Positions 5,574-15,367 of a stretch of DNA of 64,000 nucleotides are shown here, piece by piece (the stretch's first letter is position 1; every line of letters begins with the position of its first letter). Under the pieces are notes generated by a model that saw nothing but the letters and a program-made list of their open reading frames with translations, did no database searches and had not been told where the DNA came from. Source of the DNA: Bacteroidales bacterium. GTDB taxonomy: Bacteria; Bacteroidota; Bacteroidia; Bacteroidales; UBA12077. Where the stretch lies: assembly GCA_041686375.1 (NCBI GenBank), contig JAWLEB010000004.1:45672-109671 (forward strand), read 5' to 3'. Made by a program: the position numbers and the translations under genes.

Positions 5574-8500
5574 TTATTTATTAAGAAATTTTAATTTTCT
5601 AATATCTATTTTCTGTGGCAAATTAAGCAATCTGTAAAGCACCTGATAGTAAAGCGTTATATATAATATTATTGCCATAAGAATAATTATTCCAAGGTTA
5701 AACCCGAAAGTTCCGAAAAAATACCCCATAAAGTGTTTTCGGGGCGCATAAAAATGTGAGCGAAAATTAAAATAACCATCAACTGTTGGCTCCTTATATA
5801 TAGGGTCAACATGTTGAATCAGTCTATTCTTGTCCCTTATTATTTTATTTTTTTCGTAAACTTTTTTCACATTATCTTCTATGCTTTCATTGGAATAATC
5901 CTCCTTCAGTTTACGATATTTTTTCCTATTTTGCTTAAGCATATAACTTTTCATGTTGTTCAACTGGGTATTTGCCTTATTGAACTGATCAGAATAAAAA
6001 CTGTCGATAATACCAAGATAGTTTTGGGCTTCATTCATAACAGCCTCATTGATATCTTTAATATTAATTTGTTCCAAGTATTCAAAATTGTGTCCTGTAT
6101 TGTCTGCTTCAATTCTAATCTCATTTCGCACCAATGCAAGGTCTTGTTTTAGTTGTTCTCCTATCTCCGGGTCATCAGCTTGATTAATATTTGTTTTGAT
6201 ATCTTTCAGTATTTTCTCTAATTCAGGAATAAAATATACTTGTTTATAATTGGCCTCACTTTCCTTCTTTTCAAGGTTATAGAAGCGTTTCCTGTATTCA
6301 TTATTTTTAAATTGATTAACCATCAAAGCTTCATAAGACCATTTTGTAGGCATTATTTCTGCTATTAATGGTACCTTTTCCACACTGCTTATTGAACGGT
6401 TTAGTTTGTCAAAAGGAAACATAGCACCGCTCAAAATCATCATTGGAATCATAAGAAGCGGAATAATGATGTATATTGTAACAGCCGAGTTAAATGAGGC
6501 AGAAATGTTTAAGCCTAACAAATTAGCACATACTGCAGTAATAAATAAAGCAAGCCAGTATGGGAACATCATCCCCTTTATTTCCAAAATGTTGTTGGCA
6601 ACCATAATAAACAGAAATGACTGTATGCCTGAAATTCCAATTAAAATTAATATTTTGGAAACAAGATAGCTTGATTTACTTAAATTGAGAAACTGCTCAC
6701 GTTTTAAAATTTTCCGGTCTCTGAATATTTCTTCGGCACTTACAGTAAGGCCTAAAAACAAGGCAACAATCAATGCCATGAATATAAATATAGGAATGTT
6801 TTCATTGACCCTGAAAATATATTCATTTGAGGTGGGATCTGGTATATATCTAATGATATATGATAGAATAAATCCCAGAACCGGAGCCTCAAGCATTGTA
6901 AGAGCAACGTATTGTTTATTGCTGATTTTTGAAAGGAAGTCTCGTATTGTGTATATTTTTAGCTGGCTAAACCAGTTGGGTATTTTTGTTGTGGACGGTG
7001 GAGATTCGTTTACCTCTTTGACATTTTTCATTTCCTCCAGCGGAACATTTTCATGCAGTTTTTCTTCCCATTTTTTGGGTGGTACCTTCCTCTGCTCAGT
7101 GTATTGTCCATATTCGTCAACCACTTTGGCTTCCATAATGTTGAAAATAAGCTCCGGGTTTACGTTACCACATGTCGGGCATTCACCCACTTCGCTGTTT
7201 ATTTGAGCATCCAGCTTTTTAAAGTACATTACTCCTTCTACCGGGTTACCGTAATATACCATATATCCACCTTCGTCAAGGATAATCATGTTGTCAAACA
7301 TTTTGTATATTTCTGAGGAAGGCTGGTGGATAACAACAAAGATTAGCTTTCCTTTCAGGGTAAGTTCTCTCAGGAGGTCCATTACATTTTCAGAGTCTCG
7401 TGAAGAAAGCCCGGAAGTTGGTTCATCTACGAAGAGGATTGCTGGTTCTCGTATTAGCTCTAGTGCTATATTCAGGCGTTTTCTTTGTCCTCCGCTTATA
7501 AGTTTATTCAGGGGACTACCTACTTTCAGGTCTTTTATCTCTCCAAGGCCAAGGTTGTTCAACGTTTTGTTAACGAGAGCTGTTATTTCATCCTCTGATT
7601 TATCTTTGAAGCATAATTTAGCGTTGTAATAAAGATTTTGAAATACTGTTAGCTCTTCAATCAACAAATCATCCTGAGGAATATATCCTATGACTCCTTT
7701 AATTTTTTCGTTTTCTTCATGAATGTTTATGCCGTTGATTTTTACCTTCCCGTCGGTTGGTTTGCTGTTTCCTACCAGCACATTCATAAGGGTGGTTTTT
7801 CCTGCGCCACTTGCACCCATGATACCCACAAGCTTACCCTGAGATTCTGCAAAATTGATGTTTCGAAGTCCTATAGTTCCGTTTAGAAATTGGTAGCCTA
7901 TATCTTCAGCAACAAAAGATAATTTCAGGGAAGTACTATCAGCAAGGTAGTGGGCAACAACATCGCTGTAGTAAACGGGTTTGCCTTTGGGTAATTTTAT
8001 TGAGCCGCCTTGGGCAAAAAGATATATCCGTTTGTTGTTAAGCGGCAATCCGTTAAGATAAATTTCTTCATCACCTGTATACCTGAGGAAATAAAGGTCA
8101 ACACTTTTTACATGGAGTACGAAAATATTCCCGTCAAGCGCTTCAGATTTAATATGTTTACATTTCTCATATTGCTCCTCTTTATCATTGATTATTAGAA
8201 TATTGGAGTCATCAATTTCAGAAATTTCATTATTTATAACAAACTTTTCGATGCTGGAATATTCTTCGAGACTTATTTTAAACACTTCGGCGACTGTGTT
8301 AATAATCGCCATTCTTTGTTCCGTGAATTTACGATCGGCATTTACCAGTTCAAACAGCCTCACCAGCACAATAACCTTTTGTTTCTGTGTTAATGTCTTA
8401 TTAATTTTTTTACACAGGCCGAGAATTCTTACAGAATCTTTAACTGATGTAAGTTTTCTTTTTTGGGATTTATCTTCGAGGTTATTGGGGCCGGTATAAC

Positions 8501-8666
8501 CTGCCTTTTTATCAAACAAGGCAATGTATTCCTGAATAGCCTCATCATTCAACTGTTGTGTAAGAAAGTTCAGAACATATTCCCTTTCATTCGATTCTAC
8601 ACCATCATCTTGTTTTGCGATAATCGCAAAAAGTTGCATTAAGGCTTTTAAAATCTCTTCACTCAT
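5574..8666 (-). CDS. Fused ABC transporter ATPase/permease (ABCG/ABC-2 type) with an N-terminal TerB-like domain
   Basis: 1030 aa. Walker A GASGAGKTT, Q-loop YIPQDD, signature ISGGQRKR, Walker B ILFVDEPTSGLS, H-loop VIHQPS. C-terminal multi-TM ABC-2-like region with a long loop before the last TM. N-terminus has an AIIAKQDDGVESNEREYV pattern typical of TerB-like helical domains. Confidence 0.85.
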   Translation of the reverse strand: MSEEILKALMQLFAIIAKQDDGVESNEREYVLNFLTQQLNDEAIQEYIALFDKKAGYTGPNNLEDKSQKRKLTSVKDSVRILGLCKKINKTLTQKQKVIVLVRLFELVNADRKFTEQRMAIINTVAEVFKISLEEYSSIEKFVINNEISEIDDSNILIINDKEEQYEKCKHIKSEALDGNIFVLHVKSVDLYFLRYTGDEEIYLNGLPLNNKRIYLFAQGGSIKLPKGKPVYYSDVVAHYLADSTSLKLSFVAEDIGYQFLNGTIGLRNINFAESQGKLVGIMGASGAGKTTLMNVLVGNSKPTDGKVKINGINIHEENEKIKGVIGYIPQDDLLIEELTVFQNLYYNAKLCFKDKSEDEITALVNKTLNNLGLGEIKDLKVGSPLNKLISGGQRKRLNIALELIREPAILFVDEPTSGLSSRDSENVMDLLRELTLKGKLIFVVIHQPSSEIYKMFDNMIILDEGGYMVYYGNPVEGVMYFKKLDAQINSEVGECPTCGNVNPELIFNIMEAKVVDEYGQYTEQRKVPPKKWEEKLHENVPLEEMKNVKEVNESPPSTTKIPNWFSQLKIYTIRDFLSKISNKQYVALTMLEAPVLGFILSYIIRYIPDPTSNEYIFRVNENIPIFIFMALIVALFLGLTVSAEEIFRDRKILKREQFLNLSKSSYLVSKILILIGISGIQSFLFIMVANNILEIKGMMFPYWLALFITAVCANLLGLNISASFNSAVTIYIIIPLLMIPMMILSGAMFPFDKLNRSISSVEKVPLIAEIMPTKWSYEALMVNQFKNNEYRKRFYNLEKKESEANYKQVYFIPELEKILKDIKTNINQADDPEIGEQLKQDLALVRNEIRIEADNTGHNFEYLEQINIKDINEAVMNEAQNYLGIIDSFYSDQFNKANTQLNNMKSYMLKQNRKKYRKLKEDYSNESIEDNVKKVYEKNKIIRDKNRLIQHVDPIYKEPTVDGYFNFRSHFYAPRKHFMGYFFGTFGFNLGIIILMAIILYITLYYQVLYRLLNLPQKIDIRKLKFLNK

Positions 8667-8696: not shown

Positions 8697-9077
8697 CTAT
8701 AAAACGTAACTAACTTGTTCAAACGGAATATCTACTATGTCTGCATACTCTTCTCCGGCTTCTTCCATGTCTTCATCATCTTCCGGAAAATACCATTTGA
8801 TAAGAACGTCGTTTCCATCTTCATATAATTCCTCCAACTTCATAAGTATATCCAGAAGGAGCTTAGAAGAAGCTGTATTGAAATATACAAGTTTGAATGA
8901 GAAAACAGTTTTTGAATTTGGGTTTTCTGCATATTCATCGAGCCAGTTAAGGATAGGTTCATAGAATGTTGTTACATCCTCCGGTAATGACCTTCCGGAA
9001 ATTTCAAATATTTCATTGTCTTTGTCTAAAATAACGCTGGGAGTATCGTCTGTTCCTTTTATTTTTATTACTTCCAT
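8697..9077 (-). CDS. DUF1987 / SiaC-family regulatory phosphoprotein
   Basis: 126 aa with GTDDTPSV...ISGRSLPED...FY.PIL.WL and YFNTASSK motifs characteristic of DUF1987. Adjacent to a SiaB-like kinase and a PP2C phosphatase. Confidence 0.8.
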   Translation of the reverse strand: MEVIKIKGTDDTPSVILDKDNEIFEISGRSLPEDVTTFYEPILNWLDEYAENPNSKTVFSFKLVYFNTASSKLLLDILMKLEELYEDGNDVLIKWYFPEDDEDMEEAGEEYADIVDIPFEQVSYVL

Positions 9078-9091
9078 AATTCAAATTTTTA

Positions 9092-9667
9092 TTAAATGTT
9101 TCTAGAAATAGATGAAGAAAGAAGAAAAAATGAGCTTGTTTCATCAATTGGCAAAAAATGGTATTCCAGTTTGTTGCCTGTTTTTCTTGCGATATCAATA
9201 AAGCCTAAGCCTGCACCACCTTTGGCAGACAGCCTGCCCTCTCTCATTTGTTTTTTGTACAAATCTTTTAAGCCGTCTTTGTCAAGGCTGTTTATTTCCT
9301 CAAGCATTTCGGTTAATTCTTCGATCTTTCGATTCTCTATTACATTACCCGTGGTTACATGATAGTCCAGTTTCCCTTTACTAACCATAAAAATTCCCCT
9401 GCCAGCAAAGAGATAATCGTCAGAACCAAATGTATCGGCATGTTTACTGATGTTTTGTAAACATTCGACCATGACATGGAAGACCTTCTTCTGAACAGTA
9501 TTGGATTCTTCTTCTTTGGCCATATTAGACTCTGTTAGAGAAGTAAACGCTTTTGTAATTTGGTGAGTTATTTCTCCTTCATAAACCAGAGTTATTTCAT
9601 GAGCCTTCATTGATCGGTAGAAGTCATATACGAATTCAAGAAAGCCTTTCACATTGTGTTTATCCAT
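9092..9667 (-). CDS. SiaB-family (anti-sigma-kinase-like, HATPase fold) protein kinase
   Basis: 191 aa with a C-terminal GGAGLGFIDIARK ATP-lid-like motif. Sits between the PP2C phosphatase and the DUF1987 gene, as in SiaABC. Confidence 0.7.
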   Translation of the reverse strand: MDKHNVKGFLEFVYDFYRSMKAHEITLVYEGEITHQITKAFTSLTESNMAKEEESNTVQKKVFHVMVECLQNISKHADTFGSDDYLFAGRGIFMVSKGKLDYHVTTGNVIENRKIEELTEMLEEINSLDKDGLKDLYKKQMREGRLSAKGGAGLGFIDIARKTGNKLEYHFLPIDETSSFFLLSSSISRNI

Positions 9668-9703: not shown

Positions 9704-12304
9704 TTAAAATTCTATGCCAATTAGCAATACGTCGTCTATTTGTTTATTGTTTTTTTTCCATTTTTTGTATTCGGATGAAAACAGAGCCGAAAATTGTTGC
9801 ATAGAAAAACTTTTATTTTCTACGATATTTTCACGAATTCGTTTGGGTGTATACTTTCTTTTATGGGGTCCGCCTATCTGGTCTGGCAATCCATCCGTAA
9901 AAAAGAAAATTTTGTCTCCTTTCTTATATTTTATAACATGATTAACAAAGTCTTTTTCTGGTTTTTTCCGGTGGGGTATTCCTCCTATTGCTTTTCTGTT
10001 TCCTTTGTATTGTTCAAGGTTGCCATCACTTAAATAATATAAAGGCCTGTGTGCCCCAGCATAATGTAATTCCTTTTTCTTTTTATCGATCCGGCAGAGA
10101 GCAATATCCATACCATCTCTTGCTTCTGCATCAAAACGTTCTTGTTTGAGCGTAGCACGTACCCCGAAATGCAACTTGTCAAGTACCTCGGCGGGGGTAT
10201 AATTTTTATTATGATCGACAATATTGTTAAGCTGAAAGTAGCCAATGAATGAAAGTAGCGCTCCGGGTACTCCATGTCCTGTACAGTCTACAGCAGCTAT
10301 GAAAATGATGTCTTCTTTTTTGAGAAACCATGGGAAATCTCCGCTTACGACATCCCTGGGCTCATAGAAAATGAAAGATTTTGGCAAATATTCCTGTACA
10401 ATATTATTATTAGGCAGAATAGAAGATTGAATCCTTTGGGCATAATTGATACTTTCAGTGATTTTTTTGTTTTTATCCTGAATTTCCATTTCAATTCTTT
10501 TCGCCTCTGTGATATCATGGCCAACAAAAAGAATGGTTTCCAGCTCATTTTCATTGAATTCCGGGATTCCTTTGAAATCCATTATTCGTTCACCCAGTTT
10601 TGCCGTGGGAATATTTAATTCTTGGTTTATTTGTTCGCTGTTCTTTTTTATGACTTCAATTGATTCATTGAAAAAGTTGACTAACGTTTCTTCCAATTCA
10701 AGATCTCGAATTCTTCGGTTTAATAGTTCTTTGGGTTCCAATCCTAAATATGGATGAGATACAGGATTGGCATAGAAAAACTGGCCCCGGGTATTTAAAC
10801 GAATGATGAGGTCGGGGCTATTTTCAGAAAGGGACTGCATTTTACTTTTCATTCTTTCTTCTTTCTCAGCTCTCTTCCTTTCTGTTATGTCCCGTGAATT
10901 TAAAATGATTCCATTAATAGCAGGATCTCCAAGCATGTTTCTACCCGTTGTTTCTAGATATATTTTTTTACCGTCTTTCTTAATATATGTGTATTGAAGC
11001 GTTTGAGACTTATTAGGATTTTTCAGCAGTTCCTTAAACATGTCTCTCAGGGCAGTTTCACCTTTTGCAGTTAATCTGTCCATATCTTTTCCGCTCATCA
11101 TCTCTTCCTGGGTATAACCAAGAATGTTTTTCACATTTGGACTCTGATATTTTAGATTGAGATCTTTATCATATATAGAGATAACCTCTGATGCGTTTTC
11201 CAGCAGTGCTTGTAGCCGCTTTTGGGCATTTTCAACTTCTTTAATTTGGGTTTCAAGTTTTTTATTTGACTTTTCAAGCTCTTCCTGGGTTGCCCGCATT
11301 TCTTCAGCATTTTGCCTTAGCTCTTCCTCGTTTTCCTTCAGTTCTTCTGTCATCTGTTGCGATTCCTTTAGCAACTGTTCGGTCTTTTGGTTCATGCGCA
11401 GATTATAGATAGTCCGGGCAATGATTTCAGCCAATTCACGCACGAATTGTATGGTAAGCTGAGGGAATTCTTCTTTAACGTCAGCAAATTCTATTACGCC
11501 CTGAAGTTTTTCTTCAGCAATGAGAGGAACTATCAAAAGGCTCCGGGGTTTTTTATCGCCTAATATGCCGGAAGTTATGGTTGCATAATTCTCCGGAATT
11601 TCAGTTCTGTAAATATAATCCCTCTCATAGGCACACTCTCCGATAAGACCCTGACCAATTTTGAATTCCTGGTTTATATATCTTCTGCGATTATAAGCAT
11701 AGGTGGCGTAATTCACCAATTTATTCTCTTCTTCTTCGTACAAATATAAAGCTCCCTGGATGGTATCAATATATTCAATAAGCCTGACAATGACATCGTA
11801 GGCTAAAATGTCCAGGGAATTATGTTTTCTCAGAATATCAGCTATAAGATCCTTCCCTTCAGCAATCCAGTTTCGTTCCTTTTCCTTCCTGTTGTTTTCA
11901 ACAATATTATTGCGCATCTTGATTAACGACTTGCCTAAAACATCATTTTCATCTTTTATCTCAAGGTCTGCATCATAAAATCCTTCCCCTATTTTTTTTG
12001 CAAATGATGCGTTGCGGTCAATATCCAGGTCTCTTTGGTTTATTATATCTTCAAATATTTCCCTTTCTGCTTGCCTTTTGCGGTAATATATGTAAATAAT
12101 TATCCCTACAAGAATAGGTATTGCGTCTATGTACCAGTGTGCCGGATTATTCAAATGTATCTGGGCAATTGATGAAAAAGAAATTGGAATATTGGATATA
12201 AAAATATCAATAATCCACGCCGATAAGGGAGCAATAAGAGAAAGAGCTACTCCCAGAATGATGTCGTTTTTCGTTATGACTATGGCATTTTTTTCTTTGC
12301 TCAT
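9704..12304 (-). CDS. Membrane sensor PP2C (SpoIIE/RsbU-type) Ser/Thr phosphatase: 2TM, HAMP-like, GAF, coiled coil, PAS, PAS, PP2C (SiaA-like)
   Basis: 866 aa. Two N-terminal hydrophobic helices. GAF motif ENYATITSGILGD...GVIEF. EEL-rich coiled coil at aa 303-368. Two PAS-like segments. C-terminal PP2C motifs SGDF, VDCTGHGVPGA, DGMD, FTDG. Confidence 0.85.
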   Translation of the reverse strand: MSKEKNAIVITKNDIILGVALSLIAPLSAWIIDIFISNIPISFSSIAQIHLNNPAHWYIDAIPILVGIIIYIYYRKRQAEREIFEDIINQRDLDIDRNASFAKKIGEGFYDADLEIKDENDVLGKSLIKMRNNIVENNRKEKERNWIAEGKDLIADILRKHNSLDILAYDVIVRLIEYIDTIQGALYLYEEEENKLVNYATYAYNRRRYINQEFKIGQGLIGECAYERDYIYRTEIPENYATITSGILGDKKPRSLLIVPLIAEEKLQGVIEFADVKEEFPQLTIQFVRELAEIIARTIYNLRMNQKTEQLLKESQQMTEELKENEEELRQNAEEMRATQEELEKSNKKLETQIKEVENAQKRLQALLENASEVISIYDKDLNLKYQSPNVKNILGYTQEEMMSGKDMDRLTAKGETALRDMFKELLKNPNKSQTLQYTYIKKDGKKIYLETTGRNMLGDPAINGIILNSRDITERKRAEKEERMKSKMQSLSENSPDLIIRLNTRGQFFYANPVSHPYLGLEPKELLNRRIRDLELEETLVNFFNESIEVIKKNSEQINQELNIPTAKLGERIMDFKGIPEFNENELETILFVGHDITEAKRIEMEIQDKNKKITESINYAQRIQSSILPNNNIVQEYLPKSFIFYEPRDVVSGDFPWFLKKEDIIFIAAVDCTGHGVPGALLSFIGYFQLNNIVDHNKNYTPAEVLDKLHFGVRATLKQERFDAEARDGMDIALCRIDKKKKELHYAGAHRPLYYLSDGNLEQYKGNRKAIGGIPHRKKPEKDFVNHVIKYKKGDKIFFFTDGLPDQIGGPHKRKYTPKRIRENIVENKSFSMQQFSALFSSEYKKWKKNNKQIDDVLLIGIEF

Positions 12305-12314
12305 ATATAGATAT

Positions 12315-13103
12315 CTAAGTTATTATGGTTGCTAACTCATTACCAATTACGTTGGATAGTTCATTAAAAATATTTTCAGTTTTTTTGTCAAAATTCTTAA
12401 ACGATGCCAGTTCAATCAAAGCAATTGTTCTTTCCTGTTGAATAATAGGTATTAACAATAAACTTTCCGGGGAATCACTTCCCAGCCCTGATAATATTGT
12501 CGTATAATTTTCAGGAATTTTTGTAATGTTCATTACTCGTTGATTCTTAGCTGTCTGACCTGTAAGTGAAACTCCAAGCTCAAAGTCTTTGGGTTCTTCA
12601 GCGCCGTAGTATGCATATTTACCGCAAATTGTAAAGCTATCACTTTCATTTTTTCGAATATAAAAAAGACCTTGTACAATATCGTATTCATTTGCAATGT
12701 TTCTAAGTATTTGTTCACAAAAGTCTTCTGAATTTTCAGTTTCAGCAGGCAGAAGTTTTTGTTCTATTGCCTCCAGATTGTAGTCGTTGTCCTGGTCATC
12801 CCTTACCTTGTCTGCCACTGGTTGTTTTTCTTCAGTTTCATAGATTTCTTTTAGGTCGGATTTTTCCGTATAATCTTCTTTATAGGCTTTTTCAGTAGTG
12901 AGGTTAATAATCTGAACAAAATTGATTACAGCCAAGAGGATAATTAAAACAGATAACAGATATATTGTGCTCAGAGGTATATTAACGTTTTCATACTCAA
13001 CTGACAAGTTTCTTGCATTTGCCATTAAGATTACTGCACTTATTATGAGTAGGAAAAATGATATGACTCCTGTAATTTTATGTATTTTCCTTCTATAACT
13101 CAT
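12315..13103 (-). CDS. Membrane-anchored GAF-domain protein
   Basis: 262 aa with two N-terminal TM helices. The C-terminal GAF (ENYTTILSGLGSDSP...IALIELASF) looks paralogous to the GAF of the downstream sensor. Confidence 0.75.
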   Translation of the reverse strand: MSYRRKIHKITGVISFFLLIISAVILMANARNLSVEYENVNIPLSTIYLLSVLIILLAVINFVQIINLTTEKAYKEDYTEKSDLKEIYETEEKQPVADKVRDDQDNDYNLEAIEQKLLPAETENSEDFCEQILRNIANEYDIVQGLFYIRKNESDSFTICGKYAYYGAEEPKDFELGVSLTGQTAKNQRVMNITKIPENYTTILSGLGSDSPESLLLIPIIQQERTIALIELASFKNFDKKTENIFNELSNVIGNELATIIT

Positions 13104-13110
13104 TTACGGT

Positions 13111-13668
13111 TTATTTAATATTTAACAAGTAATCAATAATCTCACCTGATGAAAAAATATGGTCTGCTTCAGTAAGTTTAAGAGCAGCATCGGTCATTGT
13201 AGAAACTTCACATTCTTTGGGATTTTGAACTATTACTGTCCCTCCGTGATCTTTCAGCTTCTTTAGTCCATATGCCCCGTCCCTGTTTGCCCCTGATAAA
13301 ATTATTCCCAGGAGATTCTTGCTATATGTTTGTGCTGCCGTTTCAAAAGAGACATCTATTGAAGGACGTGAATGATTAACGGGTTCTTCGGTTGACAAAG
13401 CTATTTTCTTATTCAGTTCAATGTACATATGATAATTGGATGGGGCAAGGTAGGCTTTGCCAGGCTTTATAGAATCTTTATCAAAAGGTTCTATGACAGG
13501 TATATTAGACTTTATAGAAAGCGCTTCTACAAAACCTGAACGTACATGTTTCAACCTATGCAGGTTAAGCAAAACGGGTAAAGGGTAGTTTTTGGGTAAA
13601 GTTTGTAGGATTTTCGTAATTACTCTAAAACTACCAGCTGATCCGCCTATTATAACAGCCTTATACAT
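13111..13668 (-). CDS. cheB: Stand-alone CheB-type protein-glutamate methylesterase catalytic domain (no receiver domain)
   Basis: 185 aa. GGSAGS (Ser), NLHRLKH (His) and GANRDGA (Asp) align with the CheB catalytic triad regions. Confidence 0.85.
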   Translation of the reverse strand: MYKAVIIGGSAGSFRVITKILQTLPKNYPLPVLLNLHRLKHVRSGFVEALSIKSNIPVIEPFDKDSIKPGKAYLAPSNYHMYIELNKKIALSTEEPVNHSRPSIDVSFETAAQTYSKNLLGIILSGANRDGAYGLKKLKDHGGTVIVQNPKECEVSTMTDAALKLTEADHIFSSGEIIDYLLNIK

Positions 13669-14502
13669 CTATGAAACTTTTTTCTTATATATATTTTCGT
13701 TTTTATCGACTAAGATATAATCTTTATCGGAATTCCAATAATCGATTTTCTCATTCAAACCTACAACCAAATGACCGCCAGGAATTAAACAAGTATTGAA
13801 CGTCTTAAGTAACCGTTCCTCTAAAATTTGGTTATAGTAGAGCATTTGATTTCTACAAATAATTAATTTGATGCCCTTTGGGTATTCCTCAAATATCGTA
13901 TTTTGTTTTGTGTATTTTACGTTTTGCAGCAATGAAATATCAAAATAGGCCCGTTCATTTTTTACGGTATAATATGGTTTAAGTTCTTTTTCTCTAAAGA
14001 CCCGCTTAAAATTTGCTTCGTTAACTTCAAGTTTATTATAATCAAAATAACCTTCCTTTACTTTATTGATGTGTATCTGACTGAGACTGCTTACAAATAT
14101 TTGAACCTTATCCAAAAAATTGAGTTCATTTAATAAAATTAAAAGAGTGTATAGCTCTTCGCCTGAATTAACTTCCGGGAACCAAATTTTATAGTTTTGT
14201 ACATTACTTAATATTTTAGGGAAGAACTCATCTTTCAGGTACCTCCATAATGACGGATCTCTGAACATTTCTGTTGTTTCGATACATATCTCTTTCAAAA
14301 AGATTTCAAAAAAATCCTTGTCATTGGTTATCCGGAAAATGAAGTCATCGGCATTTTTAAGGTTGTACTTATTGATAATGAATTCTAACCTTCGTTTAAA
14401 AAAAGTCAAGGCATAATTCTTAAAATTATAATCATATTGTTCTTTAAGGGTATTGATGATGTTTCTGGTATCGACAATTCCGATTTCACTTCTGTTATTC
14501 AT
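13669..14502 (-). CDS. Divergent CheR-like protein-glutamate O-methyltransferase paralog
   Basis: 277 aa with CheR-like N-terminal helical region and ICRNQMLYY motif. The SAM-binding segment reads WFPEVNSGEELYT instead of the canonical W-x-AGCSTG-E/Q-E-x-YS. Confidence 0.75.
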   Translation of the reverse strand: MNNRSEIGIVDTRNIINTLKEQYDYNFKNYALTFFKRRLEFIINKYNLKNADDFIFRITNDKDFFEIFLKEICIETTEMFRDPSLWRYLKDEFFPKILSNVQNYKIWFPEVNSGEELYTLLILLNELNFLDKVQIFVSSLSQIHINKVKEGYFDYNKLEVNEANFKRVFREKELKPYYTVKNERAYFDISLLQNVKYTKQNTIFEEYPKGIKLIICRNQMLYYNQILEERLLKTFNTCLIPGGHLVVGLNEKIDYWNSDKDYILVDKNENIYKKKVS

Positions 14503-14524: not shown

Positions 14525-15367
14525 TTAATATTTTTTCCTGTAAAAATGCCCCCGTTTATCAAATTTATTGGCTATTTCACCCAGCATACTTTCATGAATG
14601 CCAAATAGTAAATAGCCATTGGTATACAAATGTTCATGAAAAAACTTAAAAATTTTAGATTGCAATTCATATTTAAAGTAGATAATGACATTTCTGCAGA
14701 TTATCAAATCAAATTTTGCAAAATATAAATTTTCTCCTTTAACAAGGTCATGCTTCCTGAAAATAGGTTTTTCCTTTAAAAAGTCATGGATTTCCAGAGT
14801 ATCTGTAAGTTTGTTGATTTTAAAGTATTTTGCATAAGGGACATCATTATATTCTTCATAGTTGAAAGGATTTTCTTTGACGACCTTATCAAAATTATCC
14901 AGGTATCCTATGTTAAATCTGTATTTATAAGTTCCTTTTTTTGCCTGTTCCAGGGCTTCTTCATTCAGGTCTGTAGCAAATATTTTTGCTTTATCATACA
15001 TATCCAATTCATGCAGGAGAATTAACATTGAATACACTTCCTGTCCTGTTGAGCAACCTGCATGCCATATATTGATATTTTTGTTGTTCTTAAATCGGGG
15101 GAGTATACGGAATCTTAAATCCTGCCATATCTGGGGATCTCGAAATAATTCTGTGGTATTCACAGTAATAGCTTTCACTGAATTTTCCAAAAAATTTCTG
15201 TTCTTTTTTAATTGAATAATAGCTGTTGCAATATCCATTCTATTATCATCAAGCACCTTCTGAATCCTCCTTTTTAGTGACTTTTCAGAGTATTCACTAA
15301 AGTCATACTCTGAATGATTTTTGATGGTAGAGACAAAAAAATAAACCTCCTTATCCGATAAAGCCAT
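14525..15367 (-). CDS. cheR: CheR protein-glutamate O-methyltransferase
   Basis: 280 aa with canonical IWHAGCSTGQEVYS and DLIICRNVIIYF motifs. Confidence 0.9.
   Translation of the reverse strand: MALSDKEVYFFVSTIKNHSEYDFSEYSEKSLKRRIQKVLDDNRMDIATAIIQLKKNRNFLENSVKAITVNTTELFRDPQIWQDLRFRILPRFKNNKNINIWHAGCSTGQEVYSMLILLHELDMYDKAKIFATDLNEEALEQAKKGTYKYRFNIGYLDNFDKVVKENPFNYEEYNDVPYAKYFKINKLTDTLEIHDFLKEKPIFRKHDLVKGENLYFAKFDLIICRNVIIYFKYELQSKIFKFFHEHLYTNGYLLFGIHESMLGEIANKFDKRGHFYRKKY

What the first reader, a model, noticed from the sequence alone, without database searches (positions are those of the whole stretch)
11201..11398. Four heptad-spaced Glu-Glu pairs in the coiled coil of the PP2C sensor: candidate methyl-accepting sites
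Seen: residues 303-368 of the 866-aa sensor read RMNQKTEQLLKESQQMTEELKENEEELRQNAEEMRATQEELEKSNKKLETQIKEVENAQKRLQALL. EE(L/M) triplets start at residues 320, 327, 334 and 341, an exact 7-residue periodicity. This would place the Glu pairs on one helical face. Established: MCP methylation sites are Glu/Gln-Glu pairs spaced by heptads on the adaptation-region helices (for example Tar Q295, E302, Q309). CheB-CheR fusion sensor kinases carry similar EEL-rich segments. Inference: with two CheR genes and a CheB gene immediately upstream and no MCP in the window, this segment is the most plausible substrate. Caveat: it does not fully match the MCP consensus A/S-x-x-E-E-x-A/S/T-A-A/S/T. NAEEMRAT matches only the downstream half. 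EEL-rich signalling helices also occur in sensors with no link to methylation.
Basis: partly seen in the sequence, partly recalled or inferred. Interest (0 to 1): 0.75.

Follow-up and report, generated by a model that had tools for sequence, protein, structure and literature searches.

The report
Likely methyl-accepting helix in phosphatase sensor
A glutamate-striped helix in a membrane sensor phosphatase of a Bacteroidales bacterium matches the helix that a chemotaxis-type methyltransferase is known to methylate in a Bacillus stress kinase, so the neighbouring methyltransferase and esterase genes probably tune this sensor by reversible methylation, although no methylation has been shown.

Summary
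Residues 303-368 of the 866-aa ORF (9704-12304, minus strand) carry EE at 320/321, 327/328, 334/335 and 341/342.

The helix follows a GAF domain in a SiaA-like PP2C sensor. The operon reads cheR, cheR', cheB, TM-GAF, sensor, siaB-like, siaC-like, TerB-ABC.

- **Homology:** GAF plus helix align without gaps through the helix with RsbK-like hybrid kinases (BLASTP E=4e-29). All four EE pairs fall on their EEL heptads. B. cereus RsbK is methylated on this helix by the CheR-like RsbM.
- **Synteny:** 54 of 56 orthologous sensor loci have CheR and CheB just upstream. CheR1 resembles the kinase-associated CheRs more than chemotaxis-cluster CheRs.

Caveats:
- Only E321, E327, E334, E335, E341 and E342 are conserved. 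E320 and E328 vary, often to Q.
- The same motif occurs in many GAF-helix proteins with no CheR/CheB nearby, and in two orthologous loci without them.
- The second CheR has lost its SAM-binding motifs.
- Methylation is untested.

Verdict: a plausible new variant of the known RsbK/RsbM type of sensor-helix methylation. Here it is fused to a PP2C partner switch and made reversible by CheB.

The parts
14525..15367 (-). CheR1, a canonical CheR-type glutamate O-methyltransferase (280 aa)
   Evidence: Pfam CheR 3.9e-39 plus CheR_N. The motifs WHAGCSTGQEVYS, ATDLN and CRNVIIYF align with B. subtilis CheR 5FTW and are conserved in 43 orthologues. It scores a median of 134 bits against CheRs next to RsbK-like kinases, versus 64-77 bits against Che-cluster CheRs of Bacteroidota.
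13669..14502 (-). CheR2, a divergent CheR paralogue and probable pseudo-enzyme or adaptor (277 aa)
   Evidence: Pfam CheR 2.4e-23. PEVNSG replaces AGCSTG, and VSSLS replaces ATD(I/L)(D/N). The same losses occur in 47 orthologues.
13111..13668 (-). CheB methylesterase domain only, with no receiver domain (185 aa)
   Evidence: Pfam CheB_methylest 1.4e-48. In the alignment to T. maritima CheB 3SFT, S10, H37 and D130 align with the catalytic Ser/His/Asp motif positions as I recall them.
12315..13103 (-). Membrane-anchored GAF protein (262 aa) with no coiled coil; it is present or absent together with CheR/CheB
   Evidence: Pfam GAF_2. It is present between CheB and the sensor in the loci with CheR/CheB and absent from L055 and L056, which lack them. 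Its E/K-rich linker has no conserved motif.
9704..12304 (-). Sensor of 866 aa: 2 TM, helical linker, GAF, signalling helix, PAS, PAS, SiaA-like PP2C phosphatase
   Evidence: Pfam GAF_2, PAS and SpoIIE. The NCBIfam SiaA model matches residues 603-864. AlphaFold2 secondary structure agrees.
11408..11812 (-). GAF domain (residues 165-299), homologous to the GAF of RsbK-like kinases
   Evidence: BLASTP against the L083 kinase gives 32% identity over 199 aa, E=4e-29. Against L082, E=4e-25.
11189..11407 (-). Signalling helix / coiled coil (residues 300-372) joining GAF to PAS1
   Evidence: Nearly invariant in 116 orthologues. There are 1051 representative hits at E<=1e-3 in the 1.84-billion-protein library, and 133 of the top 150 have the same kind of GAF. 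AF2 models a helix over 282-339.
11276..11365 (-). Glu-striped core (residues 314-343) holding the candidate methyl-accepting residues. E335 is invariant. E321, E327, E334, E341 and E342 are at least 93% conserved. E314 is E or D. E320, E326 and E328 are E/Q-variable.
   Evidence: Species-level census of 61 PP2C sensors. The region aligns in register with the EEL heptads of the RsbK-like kinase L083. E334-E335-M-R-A-T fits the classical MCP pattern E-E-x-x-A-S/T, which I recall from memory.
9710..10306 (-). PP2C (SpoIIE/SiaA-type) phosphatase output domain, residues 667-865
   Evidence: Pfam SpoIIE 3.4e-16. NCBIfam prot_phos_SiaA 1.5e-51, matching the domain only.
9092..9667 (-). SiaB-family protein kinase (DUF6272)
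   Evidence: Pfam DUF6272 8.5e-45. NCBIfam SiaB_fam_kinase scores 176.7 bits against a cut-off of 85.
8697..9077 (-). SiaC-family phosphoprotein, the partner-switch substrate
   Evidence: Pfam SiaC 1.1e-42. NCBIfam SiaC 2.8e-24, below the equivalog cut-off.
5574..8666 (-). TerB-ABC-ABC2 fused transporter; a conserved downstream neighbour and possible output (inference)
   Evidence: Pfam TerB, ABC_tran and ABC2_membrane. It is present in nearly all orthologous loci that hold enough downstream sequence.

Best explanation
The segment is the signalling helix (a parallel coiled coil in the dimer) that carries the signal from the GAF domain to the PAS-PAS-PP2C output of a SiaA-like sensor phosphatase. 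It is the Bacteroidota counterpart of the methylatable S-helix of RsbK-type sensor kinases.

Proposed mechanism:
- CheR1 uses SAM to methyl-esterify one or more Glu residues on the exposed b/c face. E335 is the best candidate. The 314/321/328/335/342 stripe and the neighbouring 327/334/341 residues are further candidates.
- The receiver-less CheB removes the methyl groups. It could also deamidate Q at 320, 326 or 328 in orthologues that encode Q there.
- Charge neutralisation changes helix packing or register. That resets PP2C activity toward SiaC-P, balanced by the SiaB-like kinase, and gives the partner switch adaptation or memory.
- CheR2 has lost its SAM motifs and probably acts as an adaptor or regulator.

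Shown here: sequence, domain architecture, homology to the RsbK-like GAF-helix, synteny, and intact catalytic motifs. Inferred: methylation of this helix, the identity of the sites, the effect on PP2C, and the roles of CheR2 and the TM-GAF protein.
For: - Homology: GAF plus helix align colinearly with the L083 kinase (4HB_MCP-HAMP-GAF-HisKA-HATPase-REC). A CheR gene lies 33 nt downstream of it, followed by a REC-PP2C (RsbY-like) gene. Our four EE pairs fall on EELQTQS/EELQAQS/EELQTQT/EELRMIN.
- Experimental precedent: RsbM methylates RsbK on the S-helix that follows GAF and represses signalling (PMC4574943; PMC12848376).
- Synteny: 54 of 56 orthologous sensor loci with at least 4 kb of upstream sequence have CheR plus CheB within 7 kb, across Bacteroidales and Cytophagales. 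Thirty-five of these also carry an output-less HAMP-GAF-helix receptor among the che genes.
- Independent set: 23 of 38 metagenomic GAF hybrid kinases in the RsbK-like set have CheR within 3 kb, and 16 of those 23 also have CheB. EE pairs in the 60 aa after GAF average 4.0 with CheR and 2.0 where none was found (Mann-Whitney p=8e-4).
- CheR1 is closer to these kinase-associated CheRs (median 134 bits) than to Che-cluster CheRs of the same phylum (64-77 bits).
- CheB's triad and CheR1's SAM motifs are intact.
- The window has no MCP, CheA, CheW or CheD, and no other conserved Glu-rich helix is encoded in the operon.
- E335 is invariant and lies in E-E-x-x-A-T. Positions 320, 326 and 328 are E/Q-polymorphic.
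- Sensors in loci without the accessory receptor more often keep all four EE pairs: 7 of 19 versus 1 of 35, p=6e-4, not corrected for phylogeny.
Against: - There is no direct evidence of methylation.
- The motif is just as conserved where CheR/CheB are not adjacent. L055 and L056 have a helix core identical to ours with no che genes in 9 kb upstream. Sixteen of 17 distant Cytophagales GAF-helix proteins have none within 10 kb.
- The Glu residues may therefore be kept for coiled-coil function. E334 and E335 almost never appear as Q, unlike many MCP sites.
- Marinilabiliales sensors with the most che genes nearby have a degenerate helix (AVEM/AREM), while the accessory receptor in the same locus keeps the canonical motif. 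The accessory receptor may be the primary substrate where it exists.
- Some related loci hold a full Che cluster with a true MCP (L076, L060), so MCPs may exist elsewhere in this genome.
- The count comparisons are not corrected for phylogeny, and several contigs are truncated.
- The B. cereus RsbK sequence itself could not be retrieved. The link runs through RsbK-like metagenomic kinases.
Confidence: 0.6

Rival explanations
1. The helix is only a structural signalling coiled coil, a hallmark of this GAF module. Its Glu residues are kept for helix packing or salt bridges. The adjacent CheR/CheB act on something else: other HAMP-GAF-helix receptors encoded elsewhere, or a true MCP elsewhere in the genome.
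For: - The motif is conserved without adjacent che genes.
- There are 1051 representative hits, many in proteins with up to 9 matched stretches by the library search (7 when realigned locally) and no fused CheR/CheB.
- Accessory receptors keep the canonical motif where the sensor's own helix is degenerate.
- Che clusters with an MCP occur in some Bacteroidota loci.
Against: - This window has no accessory receptor, MCP, CheA or CheW.
- cheR-cheR'-cheB are packed in one co-directional gene string with the sensor, and the arrangement is conserved in 54 of 56 loci.
- The homologous helix in RsbK is a proven CheR-type substrate (PMC4574943).
- Non-adjacency is also the norm for bona fide MCPs, so it does not exclude methylation.
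Confidence: 0.27
2. The substrate is the 262-aa membrane GAF protein encoded between cheB and the sensor, methylated in its E/K-rich linker. The sensor helix is not modified.
For: This gene is present or absent together with CheR/CheB. It is absent from L055 and L056. Its linker is Glu-rich.
Against: The linker is poorly conserved, has no recurring EE motif, and has no counterpart in RsbK-type systems. The protein ends right after GAF with no helix.
Confidence: 0.06
3. The heptad EE pattern is a compositional accident of a Glu-rich coiled coil and has no specific meaning.
For: In any coiled coil, E is favoured at the exposed b, c, e and g positions and L at the core, so EEL heptads arise easily.
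Against: Shuffle p=1.5e-4. The core is nearly invariant across 116 orthologues and across a family of more than 1000 representatives. It aligns in register with RsbK-like helices.
Confidence: 0.02

Closest known systems
Bacillus cereus RsbK-RsbM-RsbY module (Chen et al. 2012 Environ Microbiol; Chen et al. 2015, PMC4574943)
   Same: - A membrane sensor with a GAF domain followed by a signalling helix that a CheR-type methyltransferase, encoded next door, methylates.
- The output is a PP2C phosphatase driving a partner switch.
- Our GAF plus helix are homologous to RsbK-like kinases (E=4e-29), with the EE pairs in register.
- CheR1 is closest to the CheRs that sit beside such kinases.
   Different: - RsbK is a hybrid histidine kinase (HisKA-HATPase-REC) that phosphorylates a separate REC-PP2C protein (RsbY). 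Here the helix is fused through two PAS domains directly to the PP2C.
- In B. cereus, RsbM is an orphan methyltransferase and CheB has no role (PMC4574943). Here a receiver-less CheB, a degenerate second CheR and a TM-GAF protein belong to the operon.
- The partner switch is SiaB/SiaC-type, not RsbV/RsbW/sigma-B.
- The helix core motif (RQN-x-EE-M/L-x-AT-QEE) differs from the EELQxQx repeats of RsbK-like kinases.
Methyl-accepting chemotaxis proteins (Tar/Tsr adaptation region)
   Same: Glu or Glu/Gln residues at heptad spacing on an exposed helical face. CheR and CheB enzymes are involved. E334-E335-M-R-A-T fits E-E-x-x-A-S/T and resembles Tar/Tsr site 3 (MEQLTAT), both recalled from memory.
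   Different: There is no MCPsignal domain and no hairpin four-helix bundle. The window has no CheA or CheW. The helix is a GAF-to-PAS linker and the output is a phosphatase.
Pseudomonas aeruginosa SiaABCD (PMC7647112, PMC8457831)
   Same: A PP2C phosphatase (SiaA-like), a SiaB-family kinase and a SiaC phosphoprotein are encoded in that order.
   Different: No SiaD diguanylate cyclase follows. A TerB-ABC transporter does instead. The sensor part has GAF, helix and two PAS domains, and CheR/CheB are attached. None of the papers found for SiaABCD link CheR/CheB to it.
CheB/CheR fusion sensor proteins (KEGG K13924-type annotation)
   Same: Heptads of N-E-E-L-x-S/T-x lie next to CheB and CheR activities. 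Fragments with NEELQSTNEELETSKEELQS followed by PAS_10 are annotated as CheB/CheR fusion proteins.
   Different: Only short fragments were recovered, so the full architecture was not verified here. Their motif has N three residues before L, whereas ours has N-x-E-E-L. I know of no experimental evidence that those heptads are methylated.

Membership tests
RsbK-type sensors with a CheR-methylated signalling helix | GAF domain immediately followed by a long helix homologous to that of RsbK-like kinases | tested here: met
   BLASTP of residues 150-380 against the L083 kinase: 32% identity over 199 aa, E=4e-29, ungapped through the helix. Against L082: E=4e-25. L082 and L083 have RsbK architecture and a REC-SpoIIE neighbour.
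RsbK-type sensors with a CheR-methylated signalling helix | CheR-type methyltransferase gene adjacent to the sensor gene | tested here: met
   CheR1 and CheR2 lie upstream in the same gene string. The arrangement is conserved in 54 of 56 orthologous loci.
RsbK-type sensors with a CheR-methylated signalling helix | Hybrid histidine kinase output (HisKA, HATPase_c, REC) | tested here: not met
   Pfam finds PAS, PAS and SpoIIE after the helix, and no HisKA, HATPase or REC.
RsbK-type sensors with a CheR-methylated signalling helix | Glu residues of the helix carry methyl esters added by the CheR homologue | not testable with these tools
   This needs mass spectrometry or in vitro methylation. The sites I recall for RsbK (E439/E446, from memory) would map to our E314/E321 if the helix-to-His spacing is conserved. 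The RsbK sequence could not be retrieved.
Methyl-accepting chemotaxis proteins | MCP signalling domain (PF00015) with the conserved hairpin that binds CheA/CheW | tested here: not met
   No MCPsignal hit in the sensor. No hairpin motif in six frames. No window ORF matches an MCP, CheA, CheW or CheD query.
Methyl-accepting chemotaxis proteins | Methylation consensus around heptad-spaced Glu/Gln pairs | tested here: inconclusive
   E334-E335-M-R-A-T fits E-E-x-x-A-S/T. The other three pairs lack the small residues. The consensus itself is recalled from memory.
SiaABC(D) partner-switch system | SiaA-type PP2C, SiaB-family kinase and SiaC phosphoprotein encoded together | tested here: met
   NCBIfam SiaB_fam_kinase scores 176.7 bits (cut-off 85). 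Pfam SiaC scores 144.9 bits (cut-off 24.5). The SiaA model matches the PP2C part only, 175.7 bits against a full-length cut-off of 700.
SiaABC(D) partner-switch system | SiaD diguanylate cyclase as the SiaC target | tested here: not met
   The gene after siaC is a TerB-ABC transporter with no GGDEF domain. The same is true in related loci.
CheR methyltransferases | Intact SAM-binding motifs | tested here: met
   Met for CheR1. Not met for CheR2, which has PEVNSG and VSSLS in their place, consistently across 47 orthologues.
CheB methylesterases | Ser-His-Asp catalytic triad | tested here: met
   S10, H37 and D130 align with the catalytic Ser/His/Asp motif positions of T. maritima CheB 3SFT as I recall them. 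There is no receiver domain.

The most novel reading that the evidence does not exclude
Bacteroidota have a large family of non-MCP methyl-accepting receptors built on a GAF plus Glu-striped helix module. These include output-less HAMP-GAF-helix receptors and SiaA-type PP2C sensors. An RsbM-like CheR, a receiver-less CheB and a catalytically dead CheR adaptor provide chemotaxis-style adaptation for them. The adaptation acts on a Ser/Thr partner switch (SiaB/SiaC) that controls a TerB-ABC transporter, with no CheA, CheW or motility involved.
Probability: 0.35. Interest if true: 0.75.

Novelty: new variant of a known kind. Interest (0 to 1): 0.55.

Why it matters
Reversible glutamate methylation is the textbook memory device of chemotaxis receptors. 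Outside MCPs, the only experimentally supported case I found is B. cereus RsbK/RsbM, and there no esterase takes part.

If this helix is methylated, adaptation by CheR/CheB also serves phosphatase-based partner switches in Bacteroidales and Cytophagales, in loci with no MCP, CheA or CheW nearby. It would also define a sequence module, GAF plus a Glu-striped helix, that marks methyl-accepting sensors in thousands of unannotated proteins.

The operon offers a compact test system: one active CheR, one dead CheR, one CheB, one sensor and one phosphoprotein readout.

Tried and rejected
- Looking up the exact sensor protein on contigs returned only a 2.6-kb contig, which gave no context.
- Literature searches for CheR/CheB with SpoIIE/GAF, with SiaABC, or in Bacteroidetes found nothing on this system. 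Only the RsbK/RsbM papers were relevant.
- The 2012 RsbM/RsbK paper is not held.
- I tried to fetch B. cereus RsbK with a query stitched from translated primer sequences. It returned only two short CA-REC fragments. One fragment then served to fetch RsbK-like kinases from metagenomes, so the comparison is with RsbK-like kinases and not with RsbK itself.
- A query made from the recalled CheB/CheR-fusion motif returned only fragments of 90 aa or less. The architecture of those fusions was therefore not verified.
- The AlphaFold2 monomer gave low confidence for residues 335-371. It cannot settle helicity or register at the fourth pair, and no multimer tool was available.
- I looked for Q enrichment at candidate sites across the family. 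There is none at 334/335 and only modest enrichment at 321/342. E/Q polymorphism is confined to 320, 326 and 328 in the PP2C sensors.
- With a strict requirement for flanks on both sides, only 3 no-CheR kinases remained, too few to test. The relaxed comparison has cut upstream flanks and no phylogenetic correction.
- I considered fusion of CheR/CheB to motif-bearing proteins. It occurred in 0 of the 150 top representatives.
Full report
**Observation.** Nucleotides 11201-11398 encode residues 303-368, RMNQKTEQLLKESQQMTEELKENEEELRQNAEEMRATQEELEKSNKKLETQIKEVENAQKRLQALL. EE pairs start at 320, 327, 334 and 341, each followed by L or M. Residue 326 is also Glu. No other place in the six frames of the window has three heptad-spaced EE pairs. 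Residue shuffles of the segment give four such pairs at a frequency of 1.5e-4. With L322, L329, M336 and L343 as core d positions, the pairs occupy the exposed b and c positions, and E314 extends the c stripe. An AlphaFold2 monomer model built on 34 orthologues gives one helix from the last GAF helix to residue 339. Confidence is below 50 for 335-371, as expected for a coiled coil modelled without its partner chain.

**Context.** The minus-strand gene string is as follows:
- CheR1 (14525-15367)
- CheR2 (13669-14502)
- a CheB methylesterase domain without receiver (13111-13668)
- a membrane GAF protein of 262 aa (12315-13103)
- the sensor
- a SiaB-family kinase (9092-9667)
- a SiaC-family phosphoprotein (8697-9077)
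- a TerB-ABC transporter (5574-8666)

The sensor has two TM helices, a GAF domain (165-299), the helix (about 300-372), two PAS domains and a SiaA-like PP2C domain (667-865). It is therefore the phosphatase of a SiaABC-type partner switch. The window has no MCP hairpin motif, and no ORF matches MCP, CheA, CheW or CheD queries.

**Enzymes.** In CheB, S10, H37 and D130 align with the catalytic Ser/His/Asp motif positions of T. maritima CheB as I recall them. CheR1 keeps the canonical SAM-binding motifs. CheR2 has PEVNSG in place of AGCSTG and VSSLS in place of ATD(I/L)(D/N). The same losses occur in all 47 CheR2 orthologues examined, while 43 CheR1 orthologues and the single CheR of Cytophagales loci are canonical. 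The 'two CheR genes' are therefore one enzyme and one probable pseudo-enzyme.

**The helix is a family hallmark.** In 116 orthologues (64-91% identity, Bacteroidales MAGs) the core is nearly invariant. Variation is confined to 320 (E/Q/V/A/T), 326 (E/Q), 328 (E/Q) and 341 (E/D). A search of 1.84 billion representative proteins with the 77-aa helix found 1051 hits at E<=1e-3. Many proteins carry the motif repeatedly, up to nine matched stretches in that search and seven when realigned locally. Of the top 150, 133 have the same kind of GAF domain just upstream and none has a fused CheR or CheB. The family consensus is LLxESQxQ(A/T)EEL(K/R)AQEEELRQN(M/L)EELxATQEE(M/L)xR.

**Synteny in Bacteroidota.** A scan of one genome per species returned 80 loci.
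- Of 56 orthologous PP2C-sensor loci with at least 4 kb of upstream sequence, 54 have CheR and CheB within 7 kb upstream. Forty-one of these have two or more CheR genes and 13 have one.
- Thirty-five of the 54 also carry an additional output-less receptor (sensor-TM-HAMP-GAF-helix, sometimes with PAS) among the che genes. This window lacks that accessory receptor.
- The two exceptions, L055 and L056, have unrelated genes upstream. Their helix core is nonetheless identical to ours.
- Seventeen more distant GAF-helix proteins of Cytophagales carry the canonical motif, and 16 of them have no CheR/CheB within 10 kb. Several are paired with a YfiR-like gene. Some of these genera also have the che-sensor operon elsewhere, for example Chryseolinea (L040 versus L068).
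- At species level (61 sensors), E335 is invariant. E327, E341, E342, E334 and E321 are 93-98% Glu. E320 (E16/Q14/N9/V5/A4/T2) and E328 (E30/Q20/V6/I4) are not conserved. Cytophagales sensors with CheR/CheB read SNELKEKQEVLRQNAEEMQATQEEL and so keep only two pairs.
- Marinilabiliales sensors have a degenerate helix (AVEM/AREM), while the accessory receptor in the same locus keeps the canonical motif.
- Sensors in loci without an accessory receptor more often have all four pairs: 7 of 19 versus 1 of 35, p=6e-4, not corrected for phylogeny.

**Link to a proven methyl-accepting helix.** B. cereus RsbK (CHASE3-HAMP-GAF-S-helix-HK-REC) is methylated on its S-helix by the CheR-like RsbM, which represses sigma-B signalling through the PP2C response regulator RsbY (PMC4574943; PMC12848376). 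The RsbK sequence could not be fetched, but an RsbK fragment retrieved RsbK-like kinases from metagenomes.
- L083 encodes 4HB_MCP-HAMP-GAF-HisKA-HATPase-REC, then a CheR 33 nt downstream, then a REC-SpoIIE protein. L082 encodes CHASE3-GAF-HK-REC plus REC-SpoIIE.
- Our residues 150-380 align with the L083 kinase at 32% identity over 199 residues (E=4e-29), with no gap in the helix. Our four EE pairs fall on EELQTQS, EELQAQS, EELQTQT and EELRMIN. L082 gives E=4e-25.
- Of 38 such GAF kinases, 23 have a CheR within 3 kb. Sixteen of those 23 also have a CheB or a CheB-CheR fusion.
- EE pairs in the 60 residues after GAF average 4.0 with CheR and 2.0 where none was found (n=23 and 11, p=8e-4). Upstream flanks are often cut and there is no phylogenetic correction.
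- CheR1 scores a median of 134 bits against these kinase-associated CheRs, versus 64-77 bits against the CheRs of true Che clusters in Bacteroidota loci.
- If the methylated residues I recall for RsbK (E439 and E446, from memory) keep the same distance to the phospho-His as in L082, they correspond to our E314 and E321.

**Other Che contexts.** In L076, a GAF-helix-PAS protein sits between CheA and CheR in a full cluster with an MCP, CheW, CheD and REC-CheB. In L060 and L032, a CheW-CheR-CheD-REC-CheB set lies just upstream of the accessory receptor. MCPs therefore exist in some Bacteroidota, and the absence of an MCP from this genome cannot be assumed.

**The CheB/CheR fusion claim.** A query built from the recalled motif returned short fragments. 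Many are named CheB/CheR fusion protein by JGI, with NEELQSTNEELETSKEELQS heptads followed by PAS_10.

**Interpretation.** The best reading (0.6) is that this helix is the Bacteroidota version of the RsbK-type methylatable signalling helix. It is fused directly to a PP2C and made reversible by CheB. E335 and the Glu stripe are the likely sites, rather than four equivalent EE pairs.

The main rival (0.27) is that the helix is only a conserved signalling coiled coil and that CheR/CheB act on other GAF-helix receptors or on an MCP elsewhere. The two readings are not exclusive.

The 262-aa GAF protein is an unlikely substrate because its acidic linker is not conserved. Chance is excluded.

**Novelty.** Methylation of a sensor helix by a CheR homologue is known for RsbK/RsbM, and the authors noted RsbK-like kinases paired with CheR in many phyla (PMC4574943). 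What appears undescribed in the papers I could search is the variant seen here: a SiaABC-type phosphatase sensor, a receiver-less CheB, a dead CheR paralogue, a co-inherited TM-GAF protein and an ABC transporter as the likely output.

Noticed in passing
window 13669-14502 (-): The second CheR (CheR2) lacks the canonical SAM-binding motifs. It has PEVNSG for AGCSTG and VSSLS for ATD(I/L)(D/N). The loss is conserved in 47 orthologues, which suggests a pseudo-methyltransferase acting as an adaptor or regulator.
   Followed up: partly
window 5574-8666 (-): A 1030-aa fusion of a TerB domain, an ABC ATPase and an ABC-2 permease follows siaC here and in nearly all orthologous loci that hold enough downstream sequence. 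P. aeruginosa has the cyclase SiaD at this position, so the transporter may be the target of the SiaC-like protein.
   Followed up: partly
L007 4486-6864, L013 4702-6885, L040 3736-5763, L064 5613-7226: In 35 of 54 related loci, an output-less receptor (periplasmic helical sensor, TM, HAMP, GAF, canonical Glu-striped helix, sometimes PAS) lies among the che genes. L064's copy ends about 25 residues after the motif. This window lacks that gene.
   Followed up: partly
L076 931-12817; L060 163-6066: Some Bacteroidota loci place a GAF-helix-PAS protein inside a complete chemosensory cluster. L076 has ParA-like, MCP, CheW, CheD, REC-CheB, CheA and CheR. L060 and L032 have CheW, CheR, an HATPase protein, CheD and REC-CheB immediately upstream of the sensor operon.
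   Followed up: partly
L069 8016-10519 (and similar proteins of 596-776 aa in most of L065-L081): In L069 (Cytophagales), a YfiR/HmsC-like gene (DUF4154) sits next to a TM-HAMP-GAF-helix-PAS receptor that has no output domain and no che genes nearby. Whether the similar proteins in L065-L081 have the same neighbour was not checked.
   Followed up: no
P0121 (1989 aa), P0130 (2122 aa), P0154 (2405 aa) and others: Giant proteins repeat the helix motif up to nine times by the library search (seven when realigned locally) at about 165-170-residue intervals. This implies tandem modules of helix plus a roughly 120-aa domain. Their outputs were not determined.
   Followed up: no
L091, L096, L097 (kinases with an adjacent CheB-CheR fusion gene): These GAF kinases carry a different heptad pattern after GAF, EEANANM/EEQQQQL repeated several times. 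EE pairs are again spaced by seven residues, next to a fused CheB-CheR protein.
   Followed up: no
orthologues P0094-P0120: A precomputed Pfam family, PF28175, is listed for many orthologues of the sensor. It is absent from the local Pfam copy, so its name and position, possibly this helix, could not be checked.
   Followed up: no
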